In this document: positions 848 through 14,064 of the stretch, one piece after another | Numbering within the stretch: the first letter of the stretch is position 1 | How the letters are laid out: each line of letters begins with the position of its first letter | IMG/VR virus record: IMGVR_UViG_3300045988_147738 | Coordinates: 1-38,431 of that record | DNA length: 38,431 nt | Strand: one strand, 5' to 3' | DNA from: a virus | Notes under the pieces: generated by a model | What the model was told of the DNA's origin: nothing | Databases searched by the model: none | The model's input: the letters and a program-made list of their open reading frames with translations, nothing else | Translations under genes and position numbers: made by a program

Positions 848-919
848 CGGACCGCAGCGCCCGCGCTCGGCCCGTTGTACCTCCCCTTTTATTATACCAC
901 ACCGGGCCCGCGTTGTCAA
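848..919. promoter_or_regulatory. promoter-hairpin module copy 1 (minus-strand TTGACA-N17-TGGTATAAT followed by an imperfect GC hairpin)
   Basis: Reverse complement of 891-919 reads TTGACAacgcgggcccggtgtggTATAAT. Hairpin at 848-875. A bidirectional terminator sits immediately to the right at 941-961. Confidence 0.6.
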
Positions 920-940
920 TAGGCAAAATGAACAAAAATT

Positions 941-961
941 AAGGGTGGATTTCTCCACCCT
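941..961. terminator. intrinsic terminator hairpin GGGTGGA-ttt-TCCACCC, with a T-run on the minus strand
   Basis: Perfect inverted repeat followed on the minus strand by TTAATTTTTGTT. Confidence 0.6.
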
Positions 962-1170
962 TAACAGAAGTTGTCAAAAATGTCATCAGACACTTGGCAC
1001 TCATACCAGCCGAAATATTCCCGGCGTGAGCGGAGTTCGCCCTCGATTTCATCCTCGTCTATGTCGGGATTTTGTATGTGGAGATACTGGATGACCCAGT
1101 GCTCGCTCGCGCATACATTCTCGTCAGCGTTGAAGTAAAATTTAGGGGTCACGATTATTCCTCCTCCCAC
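961..1170 (-). CDS. small acidic hypothetical protein; the likely GTG start at 1152 gives about 63 aa
   Basis: ORF ends in TAA. GGGAGGAGG ribosome-binding site 7 nt upstream of the GTG at 1150-1152, overlapping the stop of the upstream HD gene, which suggests translational coupling. Confidence 0.5.
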   Translation of the reverse strand: MGGGIIVTPKFYFNADENVCASEHWVIQYLHIQNPDIDEDEIEGELRSRREYFGWYECQVSDDIFDNFC

Positions 1171-1766
1171 GGCAGTTCGGGCGAAATTTCGTCCAGTTCC
1201 GCCTTGTCGTTATAGTCGGCGTTGATTGCTGGAATGTCGATAAACGCTCGGCTTGCCACATAGTCAGCCATGTGTACCAGTCTGTCGATAGGAGTGAAAG
1301 GTCTGTCCGCCTTGTCGGTAGTCCACTGACCCATGTGAGACTTGATGGCTTGCGTCAACTCATAGGGGCAGTCGCTCTCGAAAAACACCATCCATGTGCG
1401 GCAAACTTGGTCAGCGGCAATCGCGCCGTGCTTGGGGTACAACTCCTTGTCGAACTCGTGTAAGCCATACTTGGCTGTATCGTGGAGCAGACAGGCAACT
1501 CTTGCGTAGTCCTTGCGCTCGTCAGTGAGATACGCCCACTGGCTCATGCGGAGCAATTCCTCACAAAACCACGCGACCGCCTTAGTGTGGCGCACCAAAC
1601 CGCCCTCGCCTTGGCTCATAGCCGGATGGAACTTGCCGGAAGAACTCGCGCCGATAGTCCAGAAATAGTCGGGAACAATACAGTCGAAGTAGTAGCGCAC
1701 GAATGAGCGCAAATCCTCAGACTGAATGAACTCGATTTCGTGGTCAAAAAACTGGCTCTTATTCAT
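1155..1766 (-). CDS. HD-domain metal-dependent phosphohydrolase
   Basis: Motifs HTKAVAWF, LLHDTAKY and HMADYVASR match the HD superfamily H..HD..D pattern. Start chosen at MNKSQFF because of a GGAGG ribosome-binding site; the track's longer ORF runs into the promoter module. Confidence 0.65.
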   Translation of the reverse strand: MNKSQFFDHEIEFIQSEDLRSFVRYYFDCIVPDYFWTIGASSSGKFHPAMSQGEGGLVRHTKAVAWFCEELLRMSQWAYLTDERKDYARVACLLHDTAKYGLHEFDKELYPKHGAIAADQVCRTWMVFFESDCPYELTQAIKSHMGQWTTDKADRPFTPIDRLVHMADYVASRAFIDIPAINADYNDKAELDEISPELPWEEE

Positions 1767-1889
1767 AGATGCCTCCGTGCTGTTGGTGGGTTCCAGCTCC
1801 CTCAGATTGTTTATAGTATAGCGCATTTCGGGACAAAATGCAATAGTCAATTTATACAAATTTTCACCGGAAAAATTGTTGAAAATGTG

Positions 1890-1962
1890 TATTGACAAAA
1901 ATGCCGGGCGCCACAATCGTGAACGCCCGACCCATTATACCACAGTCAGAGGGCGTTGTCAA
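1890..1962. promoter_or_regulatory. promoter-hairpin module copy 2
   Basis: Minus strand reads TTGACAacgccctctgactgtggTATAAT, then hairpin GGGCG-ttcacgattgtg-GCGCCCG. Near-identical to copy 7 at 11226. Confidence 0.65.
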
Positions 1963-1983
1963 TAGTCAAATTGAATAAAAAAA

Positions 1984-2537
1984 TTATACTAAATTTTTTA
2001 TCATTTGTAAGGTTTTATCATACCCATATTTTTCAAGTAAACGAGTGATTTCTTTATCAAAAGGTTTTCTATTTTCAAAATTTAATTTTATATTTTCTTC
2101 ATTTATTACCCATCTTAAATTTTCAAGTCTATTATCTGTTTTTATTCCATTGATGTGGTCAACAACTAAATTGTTCGCATTTATATTTGTTTGAAAAGTA
2201 TTTAATACAAGTCTATGAATTCTATATTTTTTCTTATTTGGTAAATTTAAATATAAATATCCATTATTTAATACCCCTTTATAAAATACACCATCTTTTT
2301 TAATACGCCCCATTGTAGATATTAAATAGTCTGGTAAATCATAACACTGTTTCCATTCTTCATCAGGTAAATCCTAGGTTTCATCTTTTATAATATTATA
2401 ATAATTAGTGTGATTACGTTTTTCTATAAATACTAATTCAATTCCACGTCTTTTACAAAAAGCGATAAAAATATTTTTATCTACTCGTGAAGTTGTTAAA
2501 TTATATTTTTCTATAATTTCTTTTGTTGATAACATTA
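1984..2537 (-). CDS. HNH homing endonuclease (HNH_3-type) with one in-frame TAG at 2376-2378; AT-rich insert
   Basis: C-terminal region YRIHRLVLNTF...NLVVDHINGIKTDNRLENLRWV is a canonical HNH motif. Reading through TAG joins it in frame to an upstream 56-aa HTH-like region and an EEWK...GRIKKDG motif, with an AAGGAGG ribosome-binding site before the ATG at 2537. About 25% GC inside a 50% GC region. Confidence 0.7.
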
Positions 2538-2570
2538 TAGAACCTCCTTTAATATTCTATTATATTTAAA

Positions 2571-2628
2571 AAAACACACAAAATCATTACCCTGTTTTGT
2601 CCTGGGTAATGATTTTGTGTGTTTTATT
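2571..2628. terminator. long perfect hairpin (19-bp stem) flanked by an A-run and a T-run; bidirectional terminator
   Basis: ACACACAAAATCATTACCC-tgttttgtcc-tGGGTAATGATTTTGTGTGT. Confidence 0.7.
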
Positions 2629-3022
2629 ATAGGGCGATTTGGTAAGTTCGACGAATGGTAATTTCAACAGATTTCGGCTTCACAGGACAGGCAAATCTGT
2701 CATTTCTCACAAACACGCCGTATCCCTTTTTCTGCCAGTTCTCACGATTTTTGTCCTCGTATCGCAAAGTGTTATACTTGGAGAGCGGTAGCGAAAAATC
2801 GTAAATAAATTCAGAATTGTGCGGTAAACGGTGAACGGCGGTCTTGCGGTAGTTTCTTGTGTGTTCCTGCTGTCTACGCTTTAAGTCGTTAGTCGTGCCT
2901 ATTTTCAGAATGTAGACACCATTTTCATCATAATAGTGTCCAACATACAAAAATTCCTTGTTTTTCACACTTTTTTCCTCATTTTCTGGGGAAAATGGGG
3001 GATTTCTCCCCCATTTTCTCAA
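2627..3022 (-). CDS. GIY-YIG (T5orf172-like) domain protein
   Basis: FLYVGHYYDENGVYILKIGTTNDLKRRQQEH fits the GIY...YIG...R...E nuclease motif. The start is uncertain: TTG at 3022 or a downstream GTG with a GAGGA ribosome-binding site. Confidence 0.5.
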   Translation of the reverse strand: MRKWGRNPPFSPENEEKSVKNKEFLYVGHYYDENGVYILKIGTTNDLKRRQQEHTRNYRKTAVHRLPHNSEFIYDFSLPLSKYNTLRYEDKNRENWQKKGYGVFVRNDRFACPVKPKSVEITIRRTYQIAL

Positions 3023-3417
3023 CTTTTCGGCTTGCGCTTCTGCACAAGGGTCAGTTCATAGGAATTTTCACCAACCGAAAATGCAATCTGTCTCTCTTTA
3101 TTAGTTATTTCCACATTTTCGCAGGCATTTTCGCTGTTTTCGGTCAAAAATGTTGCGAGTTCAGCGATAATGGACGCTTTCGTGGGATTTGCCTTGCGTT
3201 CCCTTGTGGTGAATTTGTATGCGGTGGGGGTCTTGCGTGTGCCAGTCTTAGCGAATTTCTGTGCGACTTTGAGCTGTTCTTTCGACAGGTCAAAATCCTG
3301 TGCCTTACCCTTGTCGATTTCTCGGTCAGAGTTCCACACGGCTTCCGCTTCATCGGCAGTCCAGCCCATTTTCGCCATAGCGTTTTTCAGCCATTCGGTT
3401 TTGGAGATTTCAGCCAT
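3019..3417 (-). CDS. hypothetical protein (132 aa), paralog of 5565-5921
   Basis: Shares KTPTAYKFTTRERKANPTKASII with RQPTAYKFAPRERKANLTKQGII in the paralog. TGA stop. Confidence 0.6.
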   Translation of the reverse strand: MAEISKTEWLKNAMAKMGWTADEAEAVWNSDREIDKGKAQDFDLSKEQLKVAQKFAKTGTRKTPTAYKFTTRERKANPTKASIIAELATFLTENSENACENVEITNKERQIAFSVGENSYELTLVQKRKPKS

Positions 3418-3478
3418 AAAACACCGCCTTTTCAGATTTTAGAGGAGAGAGGGGGAGAGGTTATCTCCCCCTCTTGTC

Positions 3479-3976
3479 TCACTTGGCGGTGAAATACGCC
3501 TTGCGCTTATCCTCGATACGGTCTGCCTGACCGTCCAGCACCATCTGACGCACCAGAGAAGAAACCTTCTGATTGGACGCATCGGCGATAGCGGGGACAG
3601 ACTTCATCAGAGCGGACACGGTGTACTTCTCGCCCTTGTGGGCGTCCAGAAACGCCTTGATGTCAGCCTTGATACCCTCGTTTGCCACCTGCATGGCGGT
3701 CGGCTTCTTGTCCACGGTGTTCTTGCGGTCGAGCAGTTCCAGCTCGTGGTTCAGGAAGCCCGCCACATCAGCACCGGAAACCTTGACAGTGGCATCACCC
3801 TTGGAAATGTCATAGGTGGCGTCCATATCCACCTTGGACAGAATGGCGGTGAAATAGTCGCGCTTGGTCAGACGAACAGAGGAAGTGGTGTTAGTCATAG
3901 TATCAACCCTTTCTGCGTTTTTAGGTGTCGCCCACCATATTGTTGTTTCCCTCTTGGAACATCTATATTCTAACAC
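3479..3976 (-). CDS. hypothetical protein (165 aa), paralog of 5973-6374
   Basis: Shares LLDRKNTVDKKPT and SNQKVSSLVRQMVLDGQADRIEDKRKAYF with the paralog. A GC hairpin at 3440-3472 separates it from the downstream gene, as in the other copy. Confidence 0.6.
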   Translation of the reverse strand: MLEYRCSKRETTIWWATPKNAERVDTMTNTTSSVRLTKRDYFTAILSKVDMDATYDISKGDATVKVSGADVAGFLNHELELLDRKNTVDKKPTAMQVANEGIKADIKAFLDAHKGEKYTVSALMKSVPAIADASNQKVSSLVRQMVLDGQADRIEDKRKAYFTAK

Positions 3977-4163
3977 ATATCCGAAGCCTTGTCAAGACTT
4001 TTTTTCGGATTTGTGGAATTTTTTTAAGGTACACGCCCCGCCGGGAGGTCTTACCCTCTCCCTTGGAACAATTATATATTACCACACCCTTGGGCAAATT
4101 ACAATAGTCAATACTCACAAAAAAATGGGATTTTCAACATCTAAAATTTGTGCAAAAAAACAC

Positions 4164-4259
4164 TTGACAAAATTTGTGCCACGTGGTATAATGGAAATTT
4201 CGGGCGCCACATCCGTGAGCGCCCGACTCATTTTAACACATTTGAGCGCATTTGTCAAT
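4164..4259. promoter_or_regulatory. promoter-hairpin module copy 3: convergent plus and minus consensus promoters flanking a GC hairpin
   Basis: Plus strand reads TTGACA(4164)-N17-TATAAT(4187). Hairpin GGGCGCC-acatccgtga-GCGCCCG at 4202-4225. Minus strand reads TTGACA(rc 4254-4259)-N17-TAAAAT. Confidence 0.7.
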
Positions 4260-4299
4260 AGGCAATTTGCACAAAAATAAACCAGCGTAGTTGGCTACT

Positions 4300-4625
4300 A
4301 CGCTGGTTCCCCTGTTGATACTCGCCAGCCGTCCGGACAGCCAGCCCACTTCTACACAGCAGACCTAATCAGACGGGCGCAATGCCCACATAGATGGTCT
4401 TTCTCGGCACGCGGTGAATGTGGTTAGAACTTCGTACCCAGTCCCAATTTCTAACGAGGGGTTCAAGATAGCGTTTGAGAAGAAACTGTCGAGGGGACAA
4501 ACACTCTGTTAAAATCCATCTTGGCCGGGGAATTAAATATAATCAATCATTAAACTATCTAATCAAACAATGATTGACTACTAAGGTGGTCGATACAATC
4601 GCCATTTCATTTTTCTCACCTCACA
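4300..4625 (-). ncRNA. candidate noncoding RNA or long leader: an ORF-free interval between a consensus minus-strand promoter and a terminator
   Basis: No ORF longer than 10 codons has a ribosome-binding site. A minus-strand promoter at 4631-4660 (reverse complement TTGACAaatcgccccgcctgtgcTATACT) and the minus terminator hairpin at 4283-4310 bracket it. The plus-strand promoter of module 3 also reads into this interval. Confidence 0.35.
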
Positions 4626-4668
4626 ATATTAGTATAGCACAGGCGGGGCGATTTGTCAAGAGTTTTTT

Positions 4669-5352
4669 TCAAAACTCTAACTCGTCCCGAACGCCATAGC
4701 CGGAGAAATCGAGGATAACAGGAGAAATGCCAATGTACCCAATGTTTGAGCCGTGGAGGTCGTTTATGTGATACTTCTTGACGAACTCACAGAGGGCGAT
4801 AACCTTGCGCTTACCGTGGAGGGAAACGGCGACTTTTGCCCACAATCCATCAAGGTTGCGCCCATAGCCATTTTGGTCTGCCTTGCGGAACTGCCGTTCA
4901 ATCTGATTAACTCGGCAATCAGGAACAGTCTTTGCGATACGGATAAGACGATTTTTCAGCCCATCCTCTTGCCAGCAGATTTTATGAGCACAGTTGGTGA
5001 TAATCTGTTGAGCGGTGAACGCAATCGCTTCGCCATCACGAGGAGAAACAATGTAGCCAGCCAACATAGTGGCGGGGAAAAAATCAGCGAGGTTTGCGTC
5101 TACGGCTTTCTGATACACAGCCACTTCGCGCTCTGCGTCCCGCGTCTCCATAGACCATTTGAGAACATAGCCCAGCTCAGGAAACACCAGACATTCCTTG
5201 GTCGCGCCGTTGCTGGTGACTATCTTGACATTAGGGTATTCGTTGTGGATAACGCGGCACAGACTGTCTGCCTGTCTGACCAGTCTCGGCTTTTCAGATA
5301 CCGCCTGCTGAATGGTCAGGATAAAATCCTGAACTCTCGGAAACTCCATCAT
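4669..5352 (-). CDS. putative protein-kinase-like (APH/ePK-fold) protein
   Basis: HINDLHGSNIGY...ILDFSG resembles a kinase catalytic loop (HxDLHxxN) followed by a DFG-like motif. GAAAGGAG ribosome-binding site. Weak assignment. Confidence 0.35.
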   Translation of the reverse strand: MMEFPRVQDFILTIQQAVSEKPRLVRQADSLCRVIHNEYPNVKIVTSNGATKECLVFPELGYVLKWSMETRDAEREVAVYQKAVDANLADFFPATMLAGYIVSPRDGEAIAFTAQQIITNCAHKICWQEDGLKNRLIRIAKTVPDCRVNQIERQFRKADQNGYGRNLDGLWAKVAVSLHGKRKVIALCEFVKKYHINDLHGSNIGYIGISPVILDFSGYGVRDELEF

Positions 5353-5429
5353 TCATCGCTCCTTTCAGTATCATCATTATAGCACATTACAGGAGAATTA
5401 CAATAGGCAAAATGCACAAAATTTTGCGG

Positions 5430-5523
5430 AAAAAATTTCTGAAATTGTATAATGTGCCGAAAACCGGGCGCCAGGACCGTAAGCGCCCGGCCAAATTATA
5501 CCACACGCGCTCGGATTTGTCAA
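5430..5523. promoter_or_regulatory. promoter-hairpin module copy 4
   Basis: Minus strand reads TTGACAaatccgagcgcgtgtggTATAAT, then hairpin GGGCGCC-aggaccgtaa-GCGCCCG. A plus-strand TATAAT lies at 5448. Confidence 0.65.
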
Positions 5524-5564
5524 TAGGCAAAATACACAAAAAAAATGAGGGAGATTTCTCTCCC

Positions 5565-5921
5565 TCACTTGCGCGGGCAACTAAGCACAACCTTATATTT
5601 TGTTCCATCAAGCGTGAATAAAAATTCGCGCTCCGCGTTGCTCACGTTCAGGTCAGTCGCGCCGTATGTGGTCAGTGTCTCGGTCAGCAAGGTGATAATG
5701 CCTTGCTTCGTAAGATTAGCCTTTCTTTCTCTTGGCGCGAACTTGTATGCGGTCGGCTGGCGTCCTACTCCACGCGCTTTCTTGCTTGCCTTTTCCTGTT
5801 CCTCGGTCAGCGGAAACGGATTGCCGCCCTTGTCGATGATAGCATCTTGAACAATAATGTCCTTTGCTTCGGCTTCGGTACAATCCAGCTTTCGCATGAG
5901 GTCGGCAACTCGGTCAGTCAT
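5565..5921 (-). CDS. hypothetical protein (118 aa), paralog of 3019-3417
   Basis: See the paralog. TGA stop. Confidence 0.6.
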   Translation of the reverse strand: MTDRVADLMRKLDCTEAEAKDIIVQDAIIDKGGNPFPLTEEQEKASKKARGVGRQPTAYKFAPRERKANLTKQGIITLLTETLTTYGATDLNVSNAEREFLFTLDGTKYKVVLSCPRK

Positions 5922-5972
5922 GCGGTACTCCTTTCAGGGTTAGGGTGGGGAGCAATCCCCACCCTTTGAGGT

Positions 5973-6374: not shown

Positions 6375-6454
6375 TTGGTTTTGAGGGCTTTACCCTCCTG
6401 ACATTATCTATTATAACAGCTTGCGCTGGGATTGTCAAGACTTTTTTTCAAAAT

Positions 6455-6900
6455 TCTTGATTTTTTTTAATAGTGTCAACAGGGGAACGTCCCACAAGTA
6501 TTCACAACGACTTACAACCTCGCCTGACGAATAAGGTGTTGCTTGTTGGTTCAACGTTTCCATGCGCATGGACGAACTGACCAATCCACTCACTTTTCGT
6601 TCATCGTTTGGGATTACTGCGCTGGTATAGGGCTTACTTCCTTTACTCTCTCACGGTTCGCGACCCGTGGATTTCTTGGGTGGGGCTGTTCCCCTCTTGA
6701 CATTATCAATTATAGCACAGGTGCTGGGGATTGTCAAGAGGGAATTTGCGGGTCAGTTACCGAGTTATCACACCCGCCAGCGTGGCTCTTGCGAGGCGAC
6801 TTGCTGTTCCCTCTTGACATTATGTAGTATAGCACAGGTGGGTATGGATTACAATAGGCAAACTATACAAGTTTCGGGAAAAATAAATAAAAAAATTTAT
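6455..6900 (-). ncRNA. ORF-free interval driven by two tandem minus-strand promoters; candidate noncoding RNA(s)
   Basis: Promoters at 6715-6745 (reverse complement TTGACAatccccagcacctgtgcTATAAT, embedded in the palindrome CCTCTTGACA-N28-TGTCAAGAGG) and 6810-6845. No ORF in 6470-6700 has a ribosome-binding site. The 16-mer GTTCCCCTGTTGAYAC is shared with the interval at 4307. Confidence 0.3.
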
Positions 6901-6912
6901 GTAAAAAAACTC

Positions 6913-7007
6913 TTGACAAAATTGCTGGCGGGGTGTATAATGGTGAATTCCGGCCGAGACGCGCGAAATCGGCCGGCCATTATACCACACCCAGGCACAT
7001 TTGTCAA
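6913..7007. promoter_or_regulatory. promoter-hairpin module copy 5
   Basis: Plus strand reads TTGACAaaattgctggcggggtgTATAAT. Hairpin GGCCG-agacgcgcgaaat-CGGCC. Minus strand reads TTGACAaatgtgcctgggtgtggTATAAT. Confidence 0.7.
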
Positions 7008-7022
7008 TAGGTAAAAATGCAC

Positions 7023-7056
7023 AAAAAATGAGGGGAAAATCCCCTCATTTTTTTAG
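7023..7056. terminator. bidirectional intrinsic terminator
   Basis: aaaaaATGAGGGGAaaaTCCCCTCATttttttt. Confidence 0.7.
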
Positions 7057-7912: not shown

Positions 7913-7979
7913 TTCGCTTACCTCCTTATTTCAGTATAGTCATTATACCACATGAGAAAGGGACTGTCAAGCCCCAATC

Positions 7980-8636: not shown

Positions 8637-8748
8637 TGTTCATTCTCCTTTTCTCTTGGTTGGGCTTACCATCGTGTCCCATACCTTAATTACATTACAT
8701 ATTATAGCAAATAGGGGCGAGATTGTCAACCCCTATTTGCTATTTTTT

Positions 8749-9194: not shown

Positions 9195-9344
9195 TAGTAT
9201 CAACTTCCTTTCTTGATTGTAATGCTATTATACAGGATAAAACGCGATTTGTCAACAGTTTTTTCAATTCTGCTCTTGGTCATTTCGCACAAATTTTCGG
9301 GATGCGCGCTTGGGCAAATTTGTTCAATTTACCTATTGACAAAA

Positions 9345-9430
9345 TTGCTGGCAGGGTGTATAATGGAAATTTCGAGCGCCAGGGCCGTGGGCGCTCGGCC
9401 GAGTATACCACAAATAGGGGCGTTTGTCAA
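9345..9430. promoter_or_regulatory. promoter-hairpin module copy 6
   Basis: Plus strand reads TTGACAaaattgctggcagggtgTATAAT. Hairpin GCGCC-agggccgtgg-GCGC. Minus strand reads TTGACA-N17-TATACT. Confidence 0.7.
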
Positions 9431-9442
9431 TAGGTAAAATGA

Positions 9443-9475
9443 ACAAAAAAAATCTCCCAAATTTGGGAGATTTTT
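9443..9475. terminator. bidirectional terminator
   Basis: aaaaaaaaTCTCCCAaatttGGGAGAttttt. Confidence 0.7.
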
Positions 9476-9481
9476 CATTTA

Positions 9482-9696
9482 TTAACTCTTGACAGTGACG
9501 CGGAAGATGGAGCGCAGGATTGCGACAATGAGCCAAACCACCAGCACCAGTTTCCACGAGAACGCGATAACGAAAGAGCCGATGGACACGATGCCAATGG
9601 CGGGGAGAAGCCAGCAGAGAAGCCAGACCAGTCCAGCAGAGAACAGGAAGTCGATGCCAAGGCATACCAGTACCAAAAACAGAGCAGTAAACATTT
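9482..9696 (-). CDS. small membrane protein (about 71 aa, 2 predicted transmembrane helices)
   Basis: Hydrophobic MFTALFLVLVCLGIDFLFSAGLVWLLCWLL... AAGGAGGA ribosome-binding site before the internal ATG. Confidence 0.5.
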
Positions 9697-9707
9697 GTTG
9701 TTCCTCC

Positions 9708-9857
9708 TTAATAAATTTGTTCGCCGTTGTGGTAGCGTTCGTATCTCGCTTCAAGGAAGTCGAAAATGAACTCGAAGTCGTCCGCGTCCGCGGGGTCTAC
9801 GAACGTCTTTTCAAGGATTTCGCCAGTGTGGTCATTGAAAACTTTAATCATTTCCAT
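9708..9857 (-). CDS. small acidic hypothetical protein (about 49 aa)
   Basis: AGGGAGGA ribosome-binding site before MEMIKVFNDHTGEIL. Confidence 0.45.
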   Translation of the reverse strand: MEMIKVFNDHTGEILEKTFVDPADADDFEFIFDFLEARYERYHNGEQIY

Positions 9858-9923
9858 TTTGTTGTCCTCCCTTATTTGATGATACCATTCTAACACAGAG
9901 GGGCTGATTTGTCAACCCCTATT

Positions 9924-10394
9924 TTACAAATTTTTGCTTTCTGCCACGAAATATTTTGCGCCATATTGCGCCACAATGTCTTTGACCTTTTTGCTCTCGG
10001 CTTGCGTGGCACAATAGAAATTGAATAGCGTGTGTTTATTGCTAATCTCAATGTATGAATGGGGAATGTCTCGCAGGTCAAAATCCACAGCGGCACGATA
10101 CTTTGTGGGGACAGTCATTTCAATCTTCCACAATTTTTCCTTGCGCGCCAGCTCTTCCACCCACTTAACCGCCAGTACACCGATGAAATTACAGGCGGCG
10201 GTGATGCTCATTTTTGCCAGTGTAGAAACGCCGTCAATGTTGGTTAGGATAATGACATAGGAATAGAAGCCATAGGTCAGCGCATTGATACCGGCGGCTA
10301 CCCACTTATTGCCTTTGACAGTCAGAATGGATTTGATGGTGGACAGCACCACATTGATAGCGGTACAGACAATGAATAGGATAATTGCGTTCAT
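9924..10394 (-). CDS. membrane protein: N-terminal 3 transmembrane helices plus a C-terminal soluble domain (about 157 aa)
   Basis: Start at MNAIILFIV with an AAAGGAG ribosome-binding site. Promoter TTGACA-N17-TATTAT at 10415-10455 on the minus strand. Confidence 0.5.
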   Translation of the reverse strand: MNAIILFIVCTAINVVLSTIKSILTVKGNKWVAAGINALTYGFYSYVIILTNIDGVSTLAKMSITAACNFIGVLAVKWVEELARKEKLWKIEMTVPTKYRAAVDFDLRDIPHSYIEISNKHTLFNFYCATQAESKKVKDIVAQYGAKYFVAESKNL

Positions 10395-10536
10395 AATCAT
10401 CACTCCTTTTTCAGTATAATAATAATAACACATTTAATTGAAAATGTCAAGAAAAATTTTTGTCGTAGTTAAATTCTCACAAGATTAGATTTTTGTTCCG
10501 TGTAGTTAGTCAGGACTAAACCCAACAAGAGGGGCG

Positions 10537-10908
10537 TTAATGCCCCTCCGTCAGTTTATTATACATACTCCACAGCGTATCACAGGAATTGTTTGTGTTT
10601 TCAGCCATCCATACAATTTGTTCATCAGTCGGCAGGTATTTATCATTTTGAAAACCAAACCATCTATCACAGGACTGATACGCCTTATACTCGTCCTCTG
10701 TCAGCTTGCCACGCAACCACCAGTCCCAGCGGATAGAACTTATCAGAGTATACGCGCACGCGCCCGCGATAGTCAGGGTCAGGATGGCGACAGCCCCGTA
10801 CAGCACCAGCGTGGACTTTATCATACCATACACCAGCAGACCGAAACCGCACACAATGAGGAAATTGCACACCCATTTTTTGAGCGTCAGTTTCTGAAAA
10901 TCAGACAT
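10537..10908 (-). CDS. membrane protein (123 aa, 2 predicted transmembrane helices)
   Basis: AAGGAG ribosome-binding site. The stop codon lies inside the hairpin GAGGGGCgttaaTGCCCCTC. Confidence 0.5.
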   Translation of the reverse strand: MSDFQKLTLKKWVCNFLIVCGFGLLVYGMIKSTLVLYGAVAILTLTIAGACAYTLISSIRWDWWLRGKLTEDEYKAYQSCDRWFGFQNDKYLPTDEQIVWMAENTNNSCDTLWSMYNKLTEGH

Positions 10909-11119
10909 TTTCTCTACTCCTTAACATATTGTCGCAAAATTCATTGGAGAACTTCTCAGCGAAATCATCATCATAGGCGCGATTGGCAATGACTTCCATA
11001 ACCGTACTGATGCCGGACATAAAGTAGGGATTGCCATTGATGGTGTCATACCGCCCTTGGAACATAGGGCATTCACGCAGGTCTGCGAAAACCATCTGAT
11101 ACGCTTTCTTCAACTCCAT
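10901..11119 (-). CDS. hypothetical protein (72 aa)
   Basis: AAGGAGG ribosome-binding site. Overlaps the downstream gene start by 8 nt. Promoter at 11140-11200 (reverse complement TTGACTtctatcccgtaatacggTATAAT). Confidence 0.5.
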   Translation of the reverse strand: MELKKAYQMVFADLRECPMFQGRYDTINGNPYFMSGISTVMEVIANRAYDDDFAEKFSNEFCDNMLRSRENV

Positions 11120-11225
11120 TGTTCTTACCTCCTTGTTTCAGTATAGCCATTATACCGTATTACGGGATAGAAGTCAATCGTCAAAATGCACAAAATTGCG
11201 GTGAAAAATTTGTGAAGTATACCTA

Positions 11226-11275
11226 TTGACAAAAATGCCGGGCGCCACAATCGTGAGCGCGCGGCCGAAAATGTC
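11226..11275. promoter_or_regulatory. promoter-hairpin module copy 7 (degenerate, no clear -10)
   Basis: TTGACAaaaatgccGGGCGCCacaatcgtgaGCGCgcggcc is nearly identical to copy 2. Confidence 0.5.
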
Positions 11276-11331
11276 AAGTGGAAAATTATACAAAAATTGG
11301 GCTGGATTTTTGTTCATCCAGCCCAAATGAT

Positions 11332-11538
11332 TTACTTTCCTGATTTCGGCACGAAACCTCGGCAGAATTGACGACACCAGGTGCGCTCGTTCTTTCGCTT
11401 CATACATTTACTCTCACCCATACTGTTCATTACCTTGCCGTGGTTATAACCCCAGTATTCACAGTTGGAGCATCTTACCTTATCAGGCTCTACACAATAG
11501 CGGTCAGCCAGTTCAGTTCTGATTGCAAAAGTAGTCAT
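11332..11538 (-). CDS. Cys-rich small protein (68 aa), possible zinc-binding protein
   Basis: CxxC...C...C spacing. AAGGAGGA ribosome-binding site. Promoter reverse complement TTAACAaaccttttagggtgtgtTATAAT at 11560-11600. Confidence 0.5.
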   Translation of the reverse strand: MTTFAIRTELADRYCVEPDKVRCSNCEYWGYNHGKVMNSMGESKCMKRKNERTWCRQFCRGFVPKSGK

Positions 11539-11601
11539 TCGGGGCGTCCTCCTTCATTTGATGTATTTATTATAACACACCCTAAAAGGTTTGTTAATAA
11601 T

Positions 11602-11636
11602 TAAAATGAAAAATGTGGGATTTCTCCCACATTTTT
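11602..11636. terminator. bidirectional terminator
   Basis: aaaaATGTGGGAtttcTCCCACATttttttt. Confidence 0.7.
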
Positions 11637-11867
11637 TTATTTATTTTCTAACCGCATTTTGTCAGACCCGATAAGCGCAGCCAGCAGGTTTGAGGTATCA
11701 CGGACTTGGCTCATAGAATACTCTTCGCCAATGTTGGAAATAGCGTATTCTTGTTCGTAGTCATACATCAAATCAAAAAGGTGAGAAATAACTTCGCGGG
11801 CGTCTTGGAGTTTGTCCTTTTCCTCTTGGGTGAGTTGAACCTGAACGTTTGAGGTAATGATGTTCAT
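11637..11867 (-). CDS. small acidic protein, member 1 of a tandem paralog triplet (76 aa)
   Basis: AAAAGGAGA ribosome-binding site. Pattern I..V.V.LT.EE...L.DA..V/I..L.DLMYD.E.EY is shared with the next two genes. Confidence 0.5.
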   Translation of the reverse strand: MNIITSNVQVQLTQEEKDKLQDAREVISHLFDLMYDYEQEYAISNIGEEYSMSQVRDTSNLLAALIGSDKMRLENK

Positions 11868-11882
11868 TTGTTTTATCTCCTT

Positions 11883-12113
11883 TTATTTACTACGGATTTC
11901 CACTTTTTCAGTGGGGGCAAGCATTTGAAGCACATTAGCCGTAAGCGCGACATCAACTCTGTCATAGCCATTCCCGCAAGTATCGCTTACATACTCGCAG
12001 TCATTATCGGCGATGATGTCATACAATTCATTGAGAATGTCATAGGCGTCGCGCAGGGTTTTCCGCTCCTTCTCTGTTATTTTGACATAGATGGGGGCTT
12101 TAATAACTTCCAT
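11883..12113 (-). CDS. small acidic protein, paralog 2 (about 76 aa)
   Basis: MEVIKAPIYVKITEKERKTLRDAYDILNELYDIIADNDCEYV aligns with MEFIEAPIYVKLSDEERNSLNEVYTILNDLVNAAEENDCEYV in paralog 3. GAGGGAGG ribosome-binding site. Confidence 0.55.
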   Translation of the reverse strand: MEVIKAPIYVKITEKERKTLRDAYDILNELYDIIADNDCEYVSDTCGNGYDRVDVALTANVLQMLAPTEKVEIRSK

Positions 12114-12127
12114 TTTGTTTCCCTCCC

Positions 12128-12358
12128 TCAATTACTAATTTCTAGTTTTTCAGCAGGTGCGAACACTCGGCAGATTTCAGCAGCTTGGCTGAGGTCAAAC
12201 CGCCCGTAGCCATCGCCAGTCAACGGATTGCCCACATACTCGCAGTCATTCTCTTCGGCGGCGTTTACAAGGTCATTCAGAATGGTATAAACTTCATTGA
12301 GTGAATTGCGCTCTTCATCACTCAACTTGACATAGATAGGGGCTTCAATAAATTCCAT
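12128..12358 (-). CDS. small acidic protein, paralog 3 (about 76 aa)
   Basis: See paralog 2. AAAGGAGA ribosome-binding site. Promoter -35 inside the hairpin at 12395-12425. Confidence 0.55.
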   Translation of the reverse strand: MEFIEAPIYVKLSDEERNSLNEVYTILNDLVNAAEENDCEYVGNPLTGDGYGRFDLSQAAEICRVFAPAEKLEISN

Positions 12359-12429
12359 TTTGGCATTCTCCTTTCTCTTGGTATTATCTATTATAGCAGA
12401 AATGGGGCTTGTTGTCAAGCCCCAATTTT

Positions 12430-12753
12430 CTACTTCACCACATAAAATTCAGGGTGGCGTTCCTCATTCTTGCGGATACGCTTGACCAACTGCTGGGGCA
12501 GGCGGTTTTTGCCAGCACTCTTGTATATAGCGACAGCCCGTTCAAAAGTTGCGGGATATGCGGTGATGATGAAATTCTCATATAAGTCCAGCACCAAGAT
12601 GATGCCAGTCGAGAGCAAACGCAGTCGAGCGGTTTGGCGTTGGTCGATGACCTCAATCATCACGCGGTCGGAATATCCGAGGTATTCCTGTAAGAGGGCG
12701 AGCCGGTTAGCCCGCTCCTCTGTCAGATGGTTCGACATAGTGTAGTTTTCCAT
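12430..12753 (-). CDS. hypothetical protein (about 107 aa) terminated by TAG; a TGA follows 5 codons downstream at 12415
   Basis: The reverse complement reads gtg aag TAG aaa att ggg gct TGA. This is the only TAG stop among the early genes. Confidence 0.45.
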   Translation of the reverse strand: MENYTMSNHLTEERANRLALLQEYLGYSDRVMIEVIDQRQTARLRLLSTGIILVLDLYENFIITAYPATFERAVAIYKSAGKNRLPQQLVKRIRKNEERHPEFYVVK

Positions 12754-12754
12754 A

Positions 12755-12931
12755 TTACCACCCCATATTGAACACGAAGCGCACCAGACCGATACAGGCA
12801 ACGCCATATAGGATAGAGCCAACGAGGAAGTGCCAGTCGTGCGTCTGACGATAGACCATATACCCGCCGACACACTGAACGCCAGCGAAGCCAGCGAGGG
12901 CGAGGATTGCGAGGATTGCGATAGTAGCCAT
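12755..12931 (-). CDS. small membrane peptide (58 aa), not in the supplied ORF track
   Basis: MATIAILAILALAGFAGVQCVGG... with an AAAGGAGG ribosome-binding site. Promoter reverse complement TTGACAacgcccagtaggtgtgcTATACT at 12950-12990. Confidence 0.5.
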   Translation of the reverse strand: MATIAILAILALAGFAGVQCVGGYMVYRQTHDWHFLVGSILYGVACIGLVRFVFNMGW

Positions 12932-13049
12932 TGTGAATGACCTCCTTTAATTGATGGTATAAGTATAGCACACCTACTGGGCGTTGTCAACCGTCAAATT
13001 GCACAAATTTTGGGATAAAAAATTGTTGAAAATACCGAACACAAAACGC

Positions 13050-13145
13050 TTGACAAATTGGCTGGGCTGTGGTATAATGGTAAATTTCGCGCGCCAGGAC
13101 CGTGGGCGCGCGACCGAGTATAACACAAATGGGGCAGAATGTCAA
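13050..13145. promoter_or_regulatory. promoter-hairpin module copy 8
   Basis: Plus strand reads TTGACAaattggctgggctgtggTATAAT. Hairpin GCGCGCC-aggaccgtgg-GCGCGC. Minus strand reads TTGACA-N17-TATACT. Confidence 0.7.
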
Positions 13146-13223
13146 TAGGCAAAATCACCAAAATTTTCAACCGAATTATGGGCATAATGCCATATAAAAA
13201 AAACAAGGGCTTTCGCCCTTGTC

Positions 13224-13415
13224 TTAGTAGCCCCGCTTTTCCAGTCTTTCCAGCCTATCGGCGAGACACCGCGCCAGCAGTACCTTTTTCCATTTCATCA
13301 GCTCGGCTTTGTTGCCCTCGGTGTTCGCCCAGATGCCCCAAGTGATGCCCTCGTTGATGATTTCCGCTTTCTTCATACCCATCAGGTTTTCGAGATACTG
13401 TTCAAAGTTTGTCAT
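13224..13415 (-). CDS. hypothetical protein (about 63 aa)
   Basis: Start at MTNFEQYLENL with an AAGGAGG ribosome-binding site. The leader CATCAAATGAAGGAGG matches that of gene 11332-11538. Promoter reverse complement TTGACAaatcccgaaataggtgcTATAAT. Confidence 0.5.
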   Translation of the reverse strand: MTNFEQYLENLMGMKKAEIINEGITWGIWANTEGNKAELMKWKKVLLARCLADRLERLEKRGY

Positions 13416-13526
13416 AGTCTTGCGACCTCCTTCATTTGATGGTTTAATTATAGCACCTATTTCGGGATTTGTCAATACCTTTTTCAAAATTTTTTCAAAA
13501 AAAAATAGGGCTTTCACCCTATTATT

Positions 13527-13835
13527 TTAGCAATAGGCAAGCGTCATAGTCGCCCATTTCAGCACGGAAATTTGATTACACGCTCTGTCGATTTCCATTG
13601 CTTCACGCTTCGTTGCCACGCGCTTGCTTCGGTCAACGAAATAGGTTCCCTCGCTCAGCCACACCCCACAGTTGCCGCCGAACTCCCGAACGGCGTCAAT
13701 GGCTTCCTGTGCGGTCTTGCATTCCACGCCCTCCGTGGCAACCTGCCAGCCGGATTTATAGTTTACCTTTTTGCCCATTTTGAGGGTCAGCCCATCATTA
13801 TTGCCCAGCTTGCGGATAGAACGAATGTTAATCAT
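13527..13835 (-). CDS. hypothetical protein (102 aa)
   Basis: AAAGGAGA ribosome-binding site. Promoter TAGACA-N17-TATAAT at 13860-13910. Confidence 0.55.
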   Translation of the reverse strand: MINIRSIRKLGNNDGLTLKMGKKVNYKSGWQVATEGVECKTAQEAIDAVREFGGNCGVWLSEGTYFVDRSKRVATKREAMEIDRACNQISVLKWATMTLAYC

Positions 13836-13954
13836 GTGTGTATCTCCTTTGTTGTTTTGTTGTATTCATTATAACACGCTTATTTCATTTTGTCTATTGG
13901 CAAACTATACAAATCGGGATTGCGAATTTTGTGCGAAATTTTCGCATTTTTCTC

Positions 13955-14020
13955 TTGACAACTGGTGGGCTGCTGTGGTATAATATTTCGGGGCGCCACG
14001 TGCTTGATGAGCGCGACGAT
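13955..14020. promoter_or_regulatory. promoter-hairpin module copy 9, followed by an iteron-like TTTTAACAATCC at 14027
   Basis: Plus strand reads TTGACAactggtgggctgctgtggTATAAT, then hairpin GGCGCC-acgtgcttgatga-GCGC. Confidence 0.55.
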
Positions 14021-14064
14021 GCTCGTTAAAATTTTAACAATCCAATAGCAAAAAAATAGGACGC

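What the first reader, a model, noticed from the sequence alone, without database searches (positions are those of the whole stretch)
848..14020. Nine copies of a promoter-hairpin module with face-to-face consensus promoters and a GC stem that covaries between copies
Modules at about 848, 1890, 4164, 5430, 6913, 9345, 11226, 13050 and 13955 share one architecture. A terminator of the upstream operon is followed by a minus-strand TTGACA-N17-TATAAT promoter, a GC hairpin at the transcript 5' end, and usually a strongly conserved plus-strand promoter (TTGACAaaattgctggcggggtgTATAATgg) pointing the opposite way. The stem sequence differs between copies while pairing is kept (GGGCGCC/GCGCCCG, GGCCG/CGGCC, GCGCGCC/GGCGCGC), and the loop is conserved (ca-g/c-R-R-Y-ccgtg-R). 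That pattern indicates selection on RNA structure, perhaps an antitermination, processing or stability element. The convergent plus-strand promoters would produce roughly 100-nt antisense transcripts ending at the bidirectional terminators (6931 to 7046, 9372 to 9470).
Basis: seen in the sequence. Interest (0 to 1): 0.8.

Follow-up and report, generated by a model that had tools for sequence, protein, structure and literature searches.

The report
Hairpin between face-to-face early promoters
Between its early operons, a large gut phage that reads TAG as an amino acid in its late genes carries repeated control cassettes in which two perfect host-type promoters face each other across a conserved GC-rich hairpin; the arrangement is real, shared by related phages and apparently undescribed, but its function is untested.

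Summary
Seven of the nine copies (M2-M8) carry a clear 8-9 bp GC hairpin. M1 and M9 are irregular. Only five copies have a perfect plus-strand promoter, and only four are true face-to-face pairs, with 37-38 bp between the -10 elements.

The cassette reads: terminator, strong promoter P1, hairpin, opposing promoter Panti, AT-rich spacer, weaker promoter P2. It recurs in phage contigs of about 100-200 kb and in the published phage phAss-1. Those phages share only 26-68% protein identity with the window in the one neighbouring gene compared, and their stems have entirely different sequences.

Across 52 distinct copies, 8 of 9 stem pairs show compensatory changes. The element almost always lies in one orientation relative to the genes. 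It matches no Rfam family.

The hairpin is the constant core; the promoters come and go. Copies without a Panti -10 have a U-run after the hairpin and look like terminators. Indels between relatives break at the cassettes, as with T4 PeSLs.

Best reading (about 0.4): an insulator or interference node between early operons. It would make a short counter-transcript capped by the 5' hairpin. A conserved loop hints at an unknown binding factor. I rate it a new variant of known kinds, of moderate to high interest.

The parts
938..965 (-). M1: intrinsic terminator of the upstream operon
   Evidence: stem plus T-run on the minus strand
891..919 (-). M1: P1, perfect TTGACA-N17-TATAAT
849..873 (.). M1: irregular GC hairpin, 17 nt from the P1 -10. 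Only a degenerate remnant of the plus-strand promoter remains (GAGAAT plus GGAAATTC at 835-850).
   Evidence: (z -0.96)
706..734 (-). M1: P2. A further promoter lies at 650-678.
1934..1962 (-). M2: P1, perfect consensus
1905..1929 (.). M2: hairpin, short form. In the gene direction it is followed by GCATTTTTGTCAA, which looks like a terminator tail.
1892..1897 (+). M2: plus-strand TTGACA with no -10 (short form)
1815..1843 (-). M2: P2 (TTGCAT-N17-TATACT)
   Evidence: sequence
4279..4309 (-). M3: terminator of the upstream unit (minus-strand only)
4230..4258 (-). M3: P1 (TTGACA-N17-TAAAAT)
4200..4226 (.). M3: hairpin TCGGGCGC-CACATCCGTGA-GCGCCCGA
   Evidence: (-20.5 kcal/mol, z -4.6)
4164..4192 (+). 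M3: Panti, perfect consensus, facing P1
4076..4104 (-). M3: P2 (TTGTAA-N17-TAATAT)
5543..5570 (-). M4: terminator
5495..5523 (-). M4: P1, perfect consensus
5464..5490 (.). M4: hairpin CCGGGCGC-CAGGACCGTAA-GCGCCCGG
5424..5453 (+). M4: weak Panti (TTGCGG-N18-TATAAT)
5376..5403 (-). M4: P2 (TTGTAA-N16-TATAAT)
7023..7053 (.). M5: bidirectional terminator (A-run, stem, T-run)
   Evidence: sequence
6979..7007 (-). M5: P1, perfect consensus
6950..6976 (.). M5: hairpin with an unrelated stem and loop, CCGGCCGA-GACGCGCGAAA-TCGGCCGG
6913..6941 (+). M5: Panti, perfect consensus
6826..6854 (-). M5: P2 (TTGTAA-N17-TATACT)
9447..9476 (.). M6: bidirectional terminator
   Evidence: listed on both strands
9402..9430 (-). 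M6: P1 (TTGACA-N17-TATACT)
9372..9398 (.). M6: hairpin TCGAGCGCC-AGGGCCGTG-GGCGCTCGG
9336..9364 (+). M6: Panti, perfect consensus
9227..9255 (-). M6: P2, perfect consensus
11297..11326 (-). M7: terminator
11238..11264 (.). M7: hairpin with a conserved G-G mismatch. It is flanked by TTGACA (11226-11231) and TGTCAA (11272-11277), and both -10 elements are missing.
11149..11177 (-). M7: P2
13200..13225 (-). M8: terminator
13117..13145 (-). M8: P1 (TTGACA-N17-TATACT)
13087..13113 (.). M8: hairpin TCGCGCGCC-AGGACCGTG-GGCGCGCGA
13050..13078 (+). M8: Panti, perfect consensus
12962..12990 (-). M8: P2
13955..13984 (+). M9: Panti, perfect consensus with an N18 spacer. No facing P1.
13990..14024 (.). M9: irregular GC structure where the hairpin should be
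   Evidence: (z -0.40)
14025..14041 (.). M9: palindromic box GTTAAAATTTTAACAAT. The same box follows canonical hairpins in L043-L049.
14057..14079 (-). M9: terminator of the upstream gene
13868..13896 (-). M9: P2 (TAGACA-N17-TATAAT)

Best explanation
**What is shown.** Bases ~100-16000 form the early region of a large phage whose late genes are TAG-recoded. This region uses the standard code, has 42-50% GC, carries its genes on the minus strand and is driven by sigma-A-type promoters. Between its operons lies a repeated cassette. In the direction of the genes it reads:
1. the intrinsic terminator of the upstream operon;
2. a strong consensus promoter, P1;
3. a GC hairpin with an 8-9 bp stem and a 9-11 nt loop;
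4. a consensus promoter pointing backwards, Panti;
5. an AT-rich spacer;
6. a second promoter, P2, often with a weakened -35;
7. the next operon.

The hairpin is the invariant core. It keeps its pairing through compensatory changes and almost always lies in the same orientation relative to the genes.

**What is inferred.**
- The two -10 elements are 32-38 bp apart. The two predicted start sites are therefore about 23-25 bp apart, at either base of the hairpin.
- RNA polymerase covers roughly -55 to +20, so the two promoters cannot be occupied at once. A polymerase leaving one must run through the other.
- Panti should make a non-coding counter-transcript that starts flush with the hairpin and runs into the back of the upstream terminator. 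That gives an RNA of roughly 60-130 nt.

**Proposed function.** I propose the cassette is an insulator or valve between early operons.
- Occlusion and head-on collision stop read-through and throttle P1. Expression of the next operon is then set mainly by P2.
- The hairpin serves at the RNA level as a flush 5' cap against 5'-end-dependent decay in a Firmicute host (RppH, RNase J1).
- In copies without a Panti -10, where a U-run follows the hairpin, it serves instead as a second terminator in the gene direction.
- The conserved loop (WGGNYCGUR on the antisense-direction RNA) and the conserved GCTGG in the Panti spacer suggest that unknown factors read both. That would make the valve adjustable.

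**Evolutionary side.** The cassettes are also recombination points where gene cassettes are gained and lost.
For: **Promoters.** Perfect promoters are far in excess of chance. All five on the plus strand abut the hairpin.

**Geometry.**
- The distance between the -10 elements is 37-38 bp in the window and 32-38 bp in distant relatives and phAss-1.
- The Panti -10 lies 7-8 nt from the stem. The P1 -10 lies 2-4 nt from it.
- Strong hairpins directly after the -10 go with a facing antisense promoter. Mean folding energy of the first 40 nt is -11.4 kcal/mol for 17 such promoters, against -3.8 for 229 others.

**Covariation.**: 8 of 9 pairs with changes on both sides, 91% of cells paired against 74% in shuffles, 28-45% in slid controls.

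**Conservation.**
- The whole architecture, including P2, is kept with unrelated stems in L029, L030, L031, L036 and phAss-1.
- 60 of 64 covariance-model hits lie on the strand antisense to the genes, and all window hits lie in the early region.
- In distant relatives the unit of Panti, the start sequence GGAAATTYC and the hairpin occurs without P1, directly behind the upstream terminator.
- The terminator lies a median of 51 nt beyond the hairpin.

**Other features.**
- Short forms carry hairpin plus CAUUUUUGUC in the gene direction.
- Panti has its own spacer motif: GCTG[GAC] in 14 of 25 distinct Panti promoters, against 0 of 43 P1 and 0 of 246 other promoters.
- Indel breakpoints fall at the cassettes.
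Against: - No transcript ends have been mapped. Every start site, collision and RNA length is inferred from consensus spacing.
- P1 would start 2-4 nt inside the stem, so its RNA carries a shortened hairpin.
- Many copies have no adjacent promoter: form D accounts for 5 close and 14 distant copies. The hairpin must therefore do something that needs neither promoter.
- A plain 5' cap or a terminator does not need a conserved 9-nt loop, and such a large loop weakens a terminator.
- Most upstream terminators have no U-run in the antisense direction. Bidirectionality is not enriched where Panti is present, so the counter-transcript may not be short.
- It is odd to place a strong promoter (P1) only in order to throttle it.
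- Wobble pairs at the loop-closing position favour pairing on the gene-direction RNA (18 against 1). That fits poorly with the antisense RNA being the only functional strand.
Confidence: 0.4

Rival explanations
1. **A nut/boxB-like site that modifies RNA polymerase.** An early phage protein, or the RNA itself, binds the promoter-proximal hairpin on the nascent transcript and makes the polymerase resistant to terminators. Short counter-transcripts, or P1 transcripts, would then be converted later into long read-through RNAs. These would shut off the early operons by antisense transcription, or extend early operons.
For: - The hairpin lies at +1 to +30 of consensus promoters, as nut and put sites lie close to lambda and HK022 early promoters (my own knowledge).
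- The loop motif is asymmetric and is kept across distant relatives, as expected for a site that is read by a protein.
- The region is packed with terminators, including ones that act only on antisense transcription.
- A palindromic box containing TTTAACAA, which loosely recalls boxA (from memory), follows the hairpin in M9 and in L043-L049.
Against: - The loops are 9-11 nt, not GNRA-like pentaloops.
- No consistent boxA-like element lies at a fixed distance.
- Pfam found no family for six of the ten early proteins scanned, and none of the four assignments is an antiterminator.
- M5-type, L029, L031 and L036 hairpins lack the loop motif.
- Many copies have no promoter.
Confidence: 0.15
2. **Counter-transcript (antisense) control through the shared hairpin,** as in IS10 RNA-OUT/RNA-IN or plasmid CopA/CopT. 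The Panti RNA and the P1 RNA are exactly complementary over the hairpin. Their large GC-rich loops would kiss and the RNAs pair. The duplex would then be cut (RNase III) or the P1 mRNA destabilised.
For: - Face-to-face promoters whose transcripts overlap only at their 5' ends.
- GC-rich loops of 9-11 nt suit loop-loop contact.
- The hairpin forms on both strands.
- Loop centres differ between modules (ATC, GGA, GGG, AAT). That could give each pair its own specificity.
Against: - The overlap is about 25 nt and lies more than 150 nt upstream of any ribosome-binding site, so translational control as in IS10 is excluded.
- P2 transcripts would escape it.
- Forms with only one promoter, or with none, are common.
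Confidence: 0.13
3. **Mostly an evolutionary by-product.** The cassettes are PeSL-like terminator-promoter repeats that spread and recombine. The hairpin is a terminator variant. The face-to-face arrangement arose by cassette rearrangement and has no role of its own.
For: - Indels between relatives break at the cassettes: window 4277-5465 is missing in L028 at an M3/M4 junction, there are insertions at M8, and different module variants occupy one position.
- Short forms look like ordinary terminators.
- Promoters come and go.
Against: - The distance between the -10 elements and the presence of the hairpin are kept in phages with 26-68% protein identity, although the stems are unrelated.
- The loop motif, the orientation, the Panti start sequence GGAAATTYC and the spacer motif are conserved.
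- Ordinary terminators in the same region have 3-8 nt loops and long U-runs.
Confidence: 0.12
4. **A DNA-level hairpin or cruciform.** The palindrome would be extruded, helped by the two flanking open complexes. It would then act as a site for a phage enzyme: a hairpin promoter for a phage RNA polymerase as in N4, or a nicking, priming or recombination site.
For: - Pairing is selected but the strand is undecided.
- The element is kept without promoters.
- It lies upstream of every following operon in a fixed orientation, as a promoter would.
- The invariant CGC/GCG next to the loop could be a recognition core.
Against: - Convergent transcription builds up positive supercoiling between the two promoters, which disfavours extrusion (established principle).
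- The early genes already have sigma-A promoters.
- N4-type promoter hairpins have 3-nt loops (from memory).
- No phage RNA polymerase or nickase was identified here; this was not searched for thoroughly.
Confidence: 0.08
5. **An RNA polymerase sink.** Pairs of very strong promoters that fire into each other, or into an immediate terminator, would soak up host sigma-A holoenzyme on replicating phage DNA. That would help to shut off the host at little cost.
For: - Perfect consensus promoters with an extended -10 and upstream T-rich elements, whose products seem to lead nowhere: P1 into the hairpin plus U-run, Panti into a terminator.
Against: - This idea does not explain the conserved loop, the covariation or the fixed orientation.
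- The phage needs the same polymerase for its roughly 28 other early promoters.
Confidence: 0.04

Closest known systems
PeSL (promoter-early stem-loop) cassettes of T4-like phages (PMC2839356, PMC4122927)
   Same: - Repeated intergenic cassettes in the early, highly variable part of the genome.
- They combine a terminator stem-loop with a consensus host-type early promoter that has an AT-rich upstream region.
- Indels between close relatives break at the cassettes.
   Different: - PeSLs have one stem-loop, which is the terminator, and one promoter.
- Here a second, non-terminator hairpin with a conserved loop follows the promoter.
- There is also an opposing consensus promoter and a second downstream promoter.
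- The phage lineage and the host phylum are different.
IS10 pIN/pOUT (RNA-IN/RNA-OUT) and other counter-transcript systems such as CopA/CopT, ColE1 RNA I/II and P22 sar (from memory)
   Same: - Face-to-face promoters whose transcripts overlap at their 5' ends.
- The overlap forms a stable stem-loop.
   Different: - The overlap here is about 25 nt and contains no ribosome-binding site or start codon.
- There are up to nine copies per genome rather than one.
- The target mRNA has a second, unaffected promoter (P2).
Face-to-face promoter interference in coliphage 186 (pR/pL) and P2 (Pe/Pc). The literature on 'sitting duck' and occlusion interference turned up; the details are from memory.
   Same: Convergent strong promoters close enough for occlusion and collision.
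   Different: - In those phages it is a single lysis-lysogeny switch with repressor operators and start sites about 60 bp apart.
- Here the start sites are about 25 bp apart, a hairpin fills the gap, and the unit is repeated between early operons of an apparently lytic phage.
Lambda-type nut (boxA/boxB) and HK022 put sites (from memory)
   Same: A hairpin in the nascent RNA just downstream of an early promoter, in a region full of terminators.
   Different: - The loop size and sequence differ.
- There is no clear boxA.
- No N-like protein was found.
- There are many copies, and many of them lack a promoter.
5'-terminal stabiliser stem-loops of Firmicute mRNAs, e.g. the aprE and ermC leaders (from memory)
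   Same: A GC stem-loop within 0-3 nt of the predicted 5' end of the Panti RNA.
   Different: - Stabilisers do not need a conserved loop.
- They are not shared by two opposing promoters.

Membership tests
PeSL cassettes (T4-like phages) | A repeated intergenic motif holding a sigma-70-type consensus early promoter with an AT-rich upstream region | tested here: met
   P1, P2 and Panti share the upstream element TTTGTGCA-N2-TTGCCTA.
PeSL cassettes (T4-like phages) | An adjacent stem-loop that terminates transcription coming from upstream | tested here: met
   Terminator stems with T-runs lie directly upstream of P1 in M1 and M3-M8. This is sequence evidence only.
PeSL cassettes (T4-like phages) | Insertions, deletions and replacements between close relatives break at the cassettes | tested here: met
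   L028 lacks window 4277-5465, with a 76-bp overlap at the M3/M4 junction. L023, L024 and L027 carry insertions of about 0.9 kb at M8; different module variants occupy the same position.
PeSL cassettes (T4-like phages) | The cassette consists of one stem-loop and one promoter, in T4-like myoviruses | tested here: not met
   There is an extra hairpin after the promoter, an opposing promoter and a second promoter. The phage belongs to the TAG-recoded phAss-1/EF1-related group.
Convergent-promoter interference or counter-transcript modules (186 pR/pL, IS10 pIN/pOUT) | Two promoters facing each other, close enough for the transcripts and the polymerase footprints to overlap | tested here: met
   The -10 elements are 37-38 bp apart in the window and 32-38 bp apart in relatives. 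The overlap of footprints is inferred from the known size of the footprint.
Convergent-promoter interference or counter-transcript modules (186 pR/pL, IS10 pIN/pOUT) | Both promoters are active and one lowers the output of the other | not testable with these tools
   This needs 5'-end mapping and reporter assays.
Convergent-promoter interference or counter-transcript modules (186 pR/pL, IS10 pIN/pOUT) | The antisense RNA covers the ribosome-binding site or start codon of its target (IS10 type) | tested here: not met
   The overlap is the hairpin alone. The next start codon lies more than 150 nt downstream, beyond P2.
Lambda-type nut site | A boxB hairpin with a short GNRA-like loop in the promoter-proximal RNA | tested here: not met
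   The hairpin is promoter-proximal, but its loops are 9-11 nt with the motif WGGNYCGUR.
Lambda-type nut site | A boxA element at a fixed distance, and an N-like arginine-rich protein | tested here: inconclusive
   No common motif lies next to the hairpins. A TTTAACAA-containing palindrome follows only M9 and L043-L049. Pfam and PHROGs gave no RNA-binding assignment for the ten early proteins scanned.
Intrinsic (Rho-independent) terminator | A GC-rich stem with a short loop, followed directly by a U-run | tested here: inconclusive
   Short forms have CAUUUUUGUC after the stem in the gene direction. Full forms have AAAUUUCC. Loops of 9-11 nt fall outside the 3-8 nt range of the terminators in this region.
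Any described RNA family (Rfam 15) | A match to a curated covariance model | tested here: not met
   No hit at the gathering score in the whole window. At E up to 1 only sub-threshold matches appeared, mostly over flanking terminators and none on the hairpins. No tRNA or tmRNA was found.
5'-terminal stabiliser stem-loop (Firmicutes) | The stem-loop begins within a few nucleotides of the RNA 5' end | not testable with these tools
   It is predicted for Panti, whose -10 lies 7-8 nt from the stem. Start sites have not been mapped.

The most novel reading that the evidence does not exclude
The hairpin is an RNA recognition element read by a phage early protein. That protein reprogrammes host polymerase starting at Panti, and perhaps at P1, to ignore terminators. 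As the protein accumulates, the harmless short counter-transcripts become long antisense transcripts. These sweep back through the standard-code early operons and shut them off, just as the phage switches to its TAG-recoded late genes. This would be a multi-copy, nut-like timing device tied to a change of genetic code.
Probability: 0.12. Interest if true: 0.85.

Novelty: new variant of a known kind. Interest (0 to 1): 0.6.

Why it matters
- **Regulation in recoded phages.** Phages that recode a stop codon are thought to use the code change to time late-gene expression. How their early, standard-code regions are regulated is essentially unknown. The one genome paper on a relative that I checked does not mention promoters at all.
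- **A defined, testable element.** The cassette is compact and can be tested with Firmicute or E. coli polymerase and with reporters. A covariance model is in hand to find more copies.
- **If the insulator or valve reading holds.** It would be a new way of wiring many small early operons.
- **If the loop is a protein-binding site.** It could lead to a new antitermination or RNA-stability factor.
- **Practical use.** The cassettes mark recombination joints that help explain mosaicism in these uncultured phages. They also offer very strong, well-insulated promoter and terminator parts.

Tried and rejected
1. **tRNA, tmRNA or a known RNA family.** Nothing was found.
2. **Mimic of a CRISPR repeat (RNA anti-CRISPR).** Rejected on the sequence. 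Stems differ between copies within one genome, loops are 9-11 nt, and there is no repeat-like handle. This is a comparison from memory only.
3. **Operator for a dimeric DNA-binding protein.** Rejected for the stem, because the variable positions stay complementary and at least 12 different stems occur.
4. **A small peptide encoded by the Panti RNA.** The in-frame ATG is TATA-ATG, which overlaps the -10 and lies upstream of the predicted start site. The frames also differ between modules.
5. **The same hairpin in unrelated viral contigs.** The L013, L014, L017, L018 and L022 family, and single hits in GC-rich coding DNA, agree with the few chance matches I estimate for that pattern. They have no promoter context and look like an ordinary terminator on the other strand.
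6. **Are upstream terminators more often bidirectional where Panti is present?** They are not. My stem-extension rule hides some A/T-run terminators, so this test is weak.
7. **G-U versus A-C wobble, to decide the functional strand.** The result is mixed. It favours the gene-direction RNA at the loop-closing pair (18 against 1), but internal pairs give 6 against 4.
8. **A cultured relative carrying the cassette.** Enterococcus phage EF1 has only one weak antisense promoter followed by a small hairpin. Megablast of bases 1-16000 against INPHARED found nothing.
9. **Function of the neighbouring proteins.** Pfam and PHROGs gave only an HD domain, an HNH domain, T5orf172 and a deoxyribonucleotidase.

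Full report
**Setting**

The window has two parts.
- Bases ~100-16000 have 42-50% GC. Their genes are small and lie on the minus strand.
- From ~16000 onwards GC falls to 26-40% and the genes lie on the plus strand.

Reading TAG as sense in the second part raises the summed length of open frames of at least 150 codons from 2336 to 6501 codons. It also joins the portal fragments. It changes almost nothing in the first part. The window therefore comes from a TAG-recoded phage whose early region uses the standard code.

The few assignable early proteins fit a host-takeover region: an HD-domain protein, a 5'(3')-deoxyribonucleotidase, a T5orf172 protein and an HNH endonuclease. The nearest published genomes are phAss-1 (OQ749652, 'code 15 clade') and, more distantly, Enterococcus phage EF1. 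The phAss-1 paper predicts Clostridia as hosts and never mentions promoters.

Yes, with corrections.
- Bases 1-16000 hold 19 perfect TTGACA-N17/18-TATAAT sites, 14 on the minus strand and 5 on the plus strand. I calculate about 0.006 expected by chance. The looser scan finds 73 sites against 26.0 +/- 5.4 in shuffles.
- Most carry TRTG before the -10, the extended -10 typical of Firmicutes (my own knowledge).
- All five perfect plus-strand promoters (4164, 6913, 9336, 13050, 13955) sit immediately upstream of a GC palindrome.
- The nine modules align but are not alike:
  - M3, M5, M6 and M8 are true face-to-face pairs, with 37-38 bp between the -10 elements.
  - M4 has a weak plus-strand -35.
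  - M2 lacks the plus-strand -10, and M7 lacks the -10 elements of both promoters.
  - M1 has only a degenerate remnant of the plus-strand promoter.
  - M9 has the plus-strand promoter but no facing promoter.
- The M2-M8 hairpins fold at -14 to -21 kcal/mol. The structures at M1 and M9 fold no better than shuffled sequence.

**Anatomy**

In the direction of the genes each cassette reads:
1. the terminator of the upstream operon;
2. P1;
3. the hairpin;
4. the reverse complement of the opposing promoter, which I call Panti;
5. an AT-rich spacer of about 70 nt;
6. a second promoter, P2, about 154 bp after P1 and often with a weakened -35 such as TTGTAA or TTGCAT;
7. the next operon.

The P1 -10 is only 2-4 nt from the stem, so P1 should start inside the 5' arm. 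The Panti -10 is 7-8 nt away, so Panti should start flush with the stem.

P1, P2 and Panti share an upstream element, TTTGTGCA-N2-TTGCCTA, that the ordinary early promoters lack. Panti also has its own spacer motif: GCTG[GAC] occurs in 14 of 25 distinct Panti promoters, against 0 of 43 P1 and 0 of 246 other promoters.

**Relatives**

- A hairpin pattern scanned against IMG/VR found orthologous modules in seven contigs of 100-198 kb from one sample. It also found a handful of matches elsewhere, which I judge to be chance.
- A neighbouring early gene (7980-8636) retrieved 18 loci at 61-100% protein identity.
- In the distant ones (61-68%) the whole architecture recurs, P2 included. It has 34-38 bp between the -10 elements and stems of unrelated sequence.
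- phAss-1 has two full cassettes, with 32 and 34 bp between the -10 elements. It also has one P1-hairpin-U-run unit.
- Enterococcus phage EF1 has nothing convincing.
- The pattern TATAATGGAAATTYCGNNCGC occurs in IMG/VR only in 14 stretches, all on phage contigs of 97-198 kb from two samples.
- Among the many consensus early promoters in these loci, a strong hairpin right after the -10 goes with a facing antisense promoter. Mean folding energy is -11.4 kcal/mol for those 17 promoters, against -3.8 for 229 others.

**Covariation**

- In 14 distinct window-clade hairpins, 4 of 9 pairs change on both sides. 92% of cells pair, against 83% in shuffles. No shuffle in 500 reaches the observed covariation score, and the slid controls show none.
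- A covariance model built from them found 64 matches in 14 loci. Sixty lie on the strand antisense to the genes, and all window hits lie in the early region.
- Across the 52 distinct sequences, 8 of 9 pairs change on both sides. 91% of cells pair, against 74% in shuffles and 28-45% in slid controls.

Two caveats apply. That alignment was fitted to the model, and many rows are orthologues, so the number of independent events is smaller than the cell counts suggest. Even so, at least a dozen different stems occur. Selection for intrastrand pairing is well supported. A duplex operator for a dimeric protein is not.

The loop and the 5' flank are also conserved: GGAAATTYC, stem, WGGNYCGTR, stem, read on the antisense strand.

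**Which strand?**

This is unsettled.
- For the antisense RNA: in distant relatives the unit of Panti, GGAAATTYC and hairpin occurs without P1, directly behind the upstream terminator.
- For the gene-direction RNA: at the loop-closing pair the antisense strand shows C-A in 18 distinct copies. On the gene-direction RNA that position is a U-G wobble. Only one copy shows the reverse. Internal pairs are balanced, 6 against 4.

**The hairpin is the core; the promoters are optional**

| Form | Close relatives | Distant relatives |
|---|---|---|
| Both promoters | 24 | 1 (four more were missed by the model) |
| Panti only | 0 | 8 |
| P1 only | 7 | 2 |
| Neither | 5 | 14 |

Forms that lack the Panti -10 keep TTGACA about 6 nt from the stem. 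In the gene direction this gives hairpin plus CAUUUUUGUCAA, a respectable intrinsic terminator. The junction recurs in distant phages.

**Evolutionary behaviour**

Indels between the window and six close relatives break at the cassettes.
- L028 lacks window 4277-5465, with a 76-bp overlap at an M3/M4 junction.
- L023, L024 and L027 have insertions of about 0.9 kb at M8.
- Different module variants occupy the same position in different phages.

This is how the PeSL cassettes of T4-like phages behave.

**Mechanism**

Shown so far: the parts, their spacing, their conservation and the pairing.

Inferred: with start sites about 25 bp apart and a polymerase footprint of about -55 to +20, P1 and Panti cannot be occupied together. 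Each polymerase must run through the other promoter. Panti should give a non-coding RNA that begins with the hairpin and runs into the back of the upstream terminator, which lies a median of 51 nt beyond the hairpin.

I favour, at about 0.4, an insulator or valve between early operons. Occlusion and collision would stop read-through and throttle P1, leaving P2 to set expression. The hairpin would cap the 5' end of the RNA. In short forms it would act as a second terminator.

The weak points are these:
- The conserved loop is not explained.
- Copies without any promoter are not explained.
- Most upstream terminators have no U-run in the antisense direction.
- It is odd to have a strong promoter that exists only to be throttled.

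The rivals are:
- a nut-like antitermination site (0.15);
- loop-loop antisense control (0.13);
- a PeSL-like by-product (0.12);
- a DNA hairpin site (0.08);
- a polymerase sink (0.04).

**Comparison and verdict**

No Rfam family matches. The cassette shares the terminator-promoter repeat and the recombination behaviour of PeSLs. It shares the face-to-face geometry of IS10 pIN/pOUT and of phage 186 pR/pL. It fails defining features of each:
- it has an extra hairpin and two extra promoters;
- there is no ribosome-binding site in the overlap;
- there is no repressor switch.

I file it as a new variant of known kinds. The structure and its conservation are solid. The function is open.

Noticed in passing
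window 16000-38431 compared with 1-16000: The late region is TAG-recoded. Reading TAG as sense raises the summed length of open frames of at least 150 codons from 2336 to 6501 codons, and it joins the portal fragments at 22706-23122 and 23384-23896. The early region uses the standard code and has 42-50% GC, against 26-40% in the late region. The switch is sharp, near 16000.
   Followed up: partly
window 1984-2631: An AT-rich (30% GC) insert next to M2 encodes an HNH endonuclease whose frame is interrupted (ORFs 1984-2313 and 2374-2535). It is absent from all six close relatives, which have a terminator at that place.
   Followed up: partly
window 14023-15702: Nine copies of an 18-bp palindromic box, TTGTTAAATTTTTAACAA, starting at 14023, 14908, 15007, 15054, 15168, 15489, 15629, 15657 and 15685. 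Most lie in a non-coding stretch of about 800 bp that also holds CCATAC-like simple repeats (15420-15480). The same box follows canonical hairpins in L043-L049 and in L037/L038. It may be an operator array, an origin or a boundary signal.
   Followed up: partly
window 7652-7700, 8701-8750, 9887-9935, 12390-12430: Ordinary early promoters whose -35 hexamer sits in the loop of an 8-10 bp inverted repeat. The T-run lies only on the plus strand, so these are terminators that act only on antisense transcription and are merged with the promoters. The stems differ between copies (family D6/D13, 32).
   Followed up: no
window 6393-6424, 6692-6723, 6809-6840, 3945-3965, 4060-4085: A second conserved 5' leader lies directly after several -10 elements: GATAATGTCAAGAGGGRAAC, or GTTCC-AAGAG-GGAAC. 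It forms a small hairpin at the predicted RNA 5' end and also occurs in distant relatives (family D12, 23, 24, 31).
   Followed up: no
window 4290-4630 and 6440-6700: Two stretches of about 260-340 nt lie downstream of consensus promoters (4659 and 6737) and have no convincing ORF. They may be non-coding RNAs. The first lies inside the segment missing from L028. Rfam finds nothing there.
   Followed up: no
window 3019-3898 compared with 5565-6353; 11883-12131 compared with 12128-12360: Segmental duplications of early gene pairs at 72-78% DNA identity. Each of the first pair lies downstream of a module (M3 and M5). Those two modules have unrelated hairpin sequences (families D14, D16, D17).
   Followed up: no
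window 1-80: A tandem direct repeat of about 38 nt (AAATGATTATGGTAGAATGATGATATTGATAAAAGAAA) at the very start of the window, just outside the GC-rich island.
   Followed up: no
L041 (phAss-1) 6700-6900: In phAss-1, the 3' end of a tRNA gene (GGTTCGACTCCCGTACACTCCACCA) lies about 90 nt upstream of a unit made of P1, hairpin and U-run.
   Followed up: no
L013, L014, L017, L018, L022: An identical hairpin, CGCGCGC-CAGATCCGTGG-GCGCGCG, occurs in five unrelated viral contigs from different samples. It has no promoter context. It is probably a terminator on the other strand and a chance match to the search pattern.
   Followed up: partly
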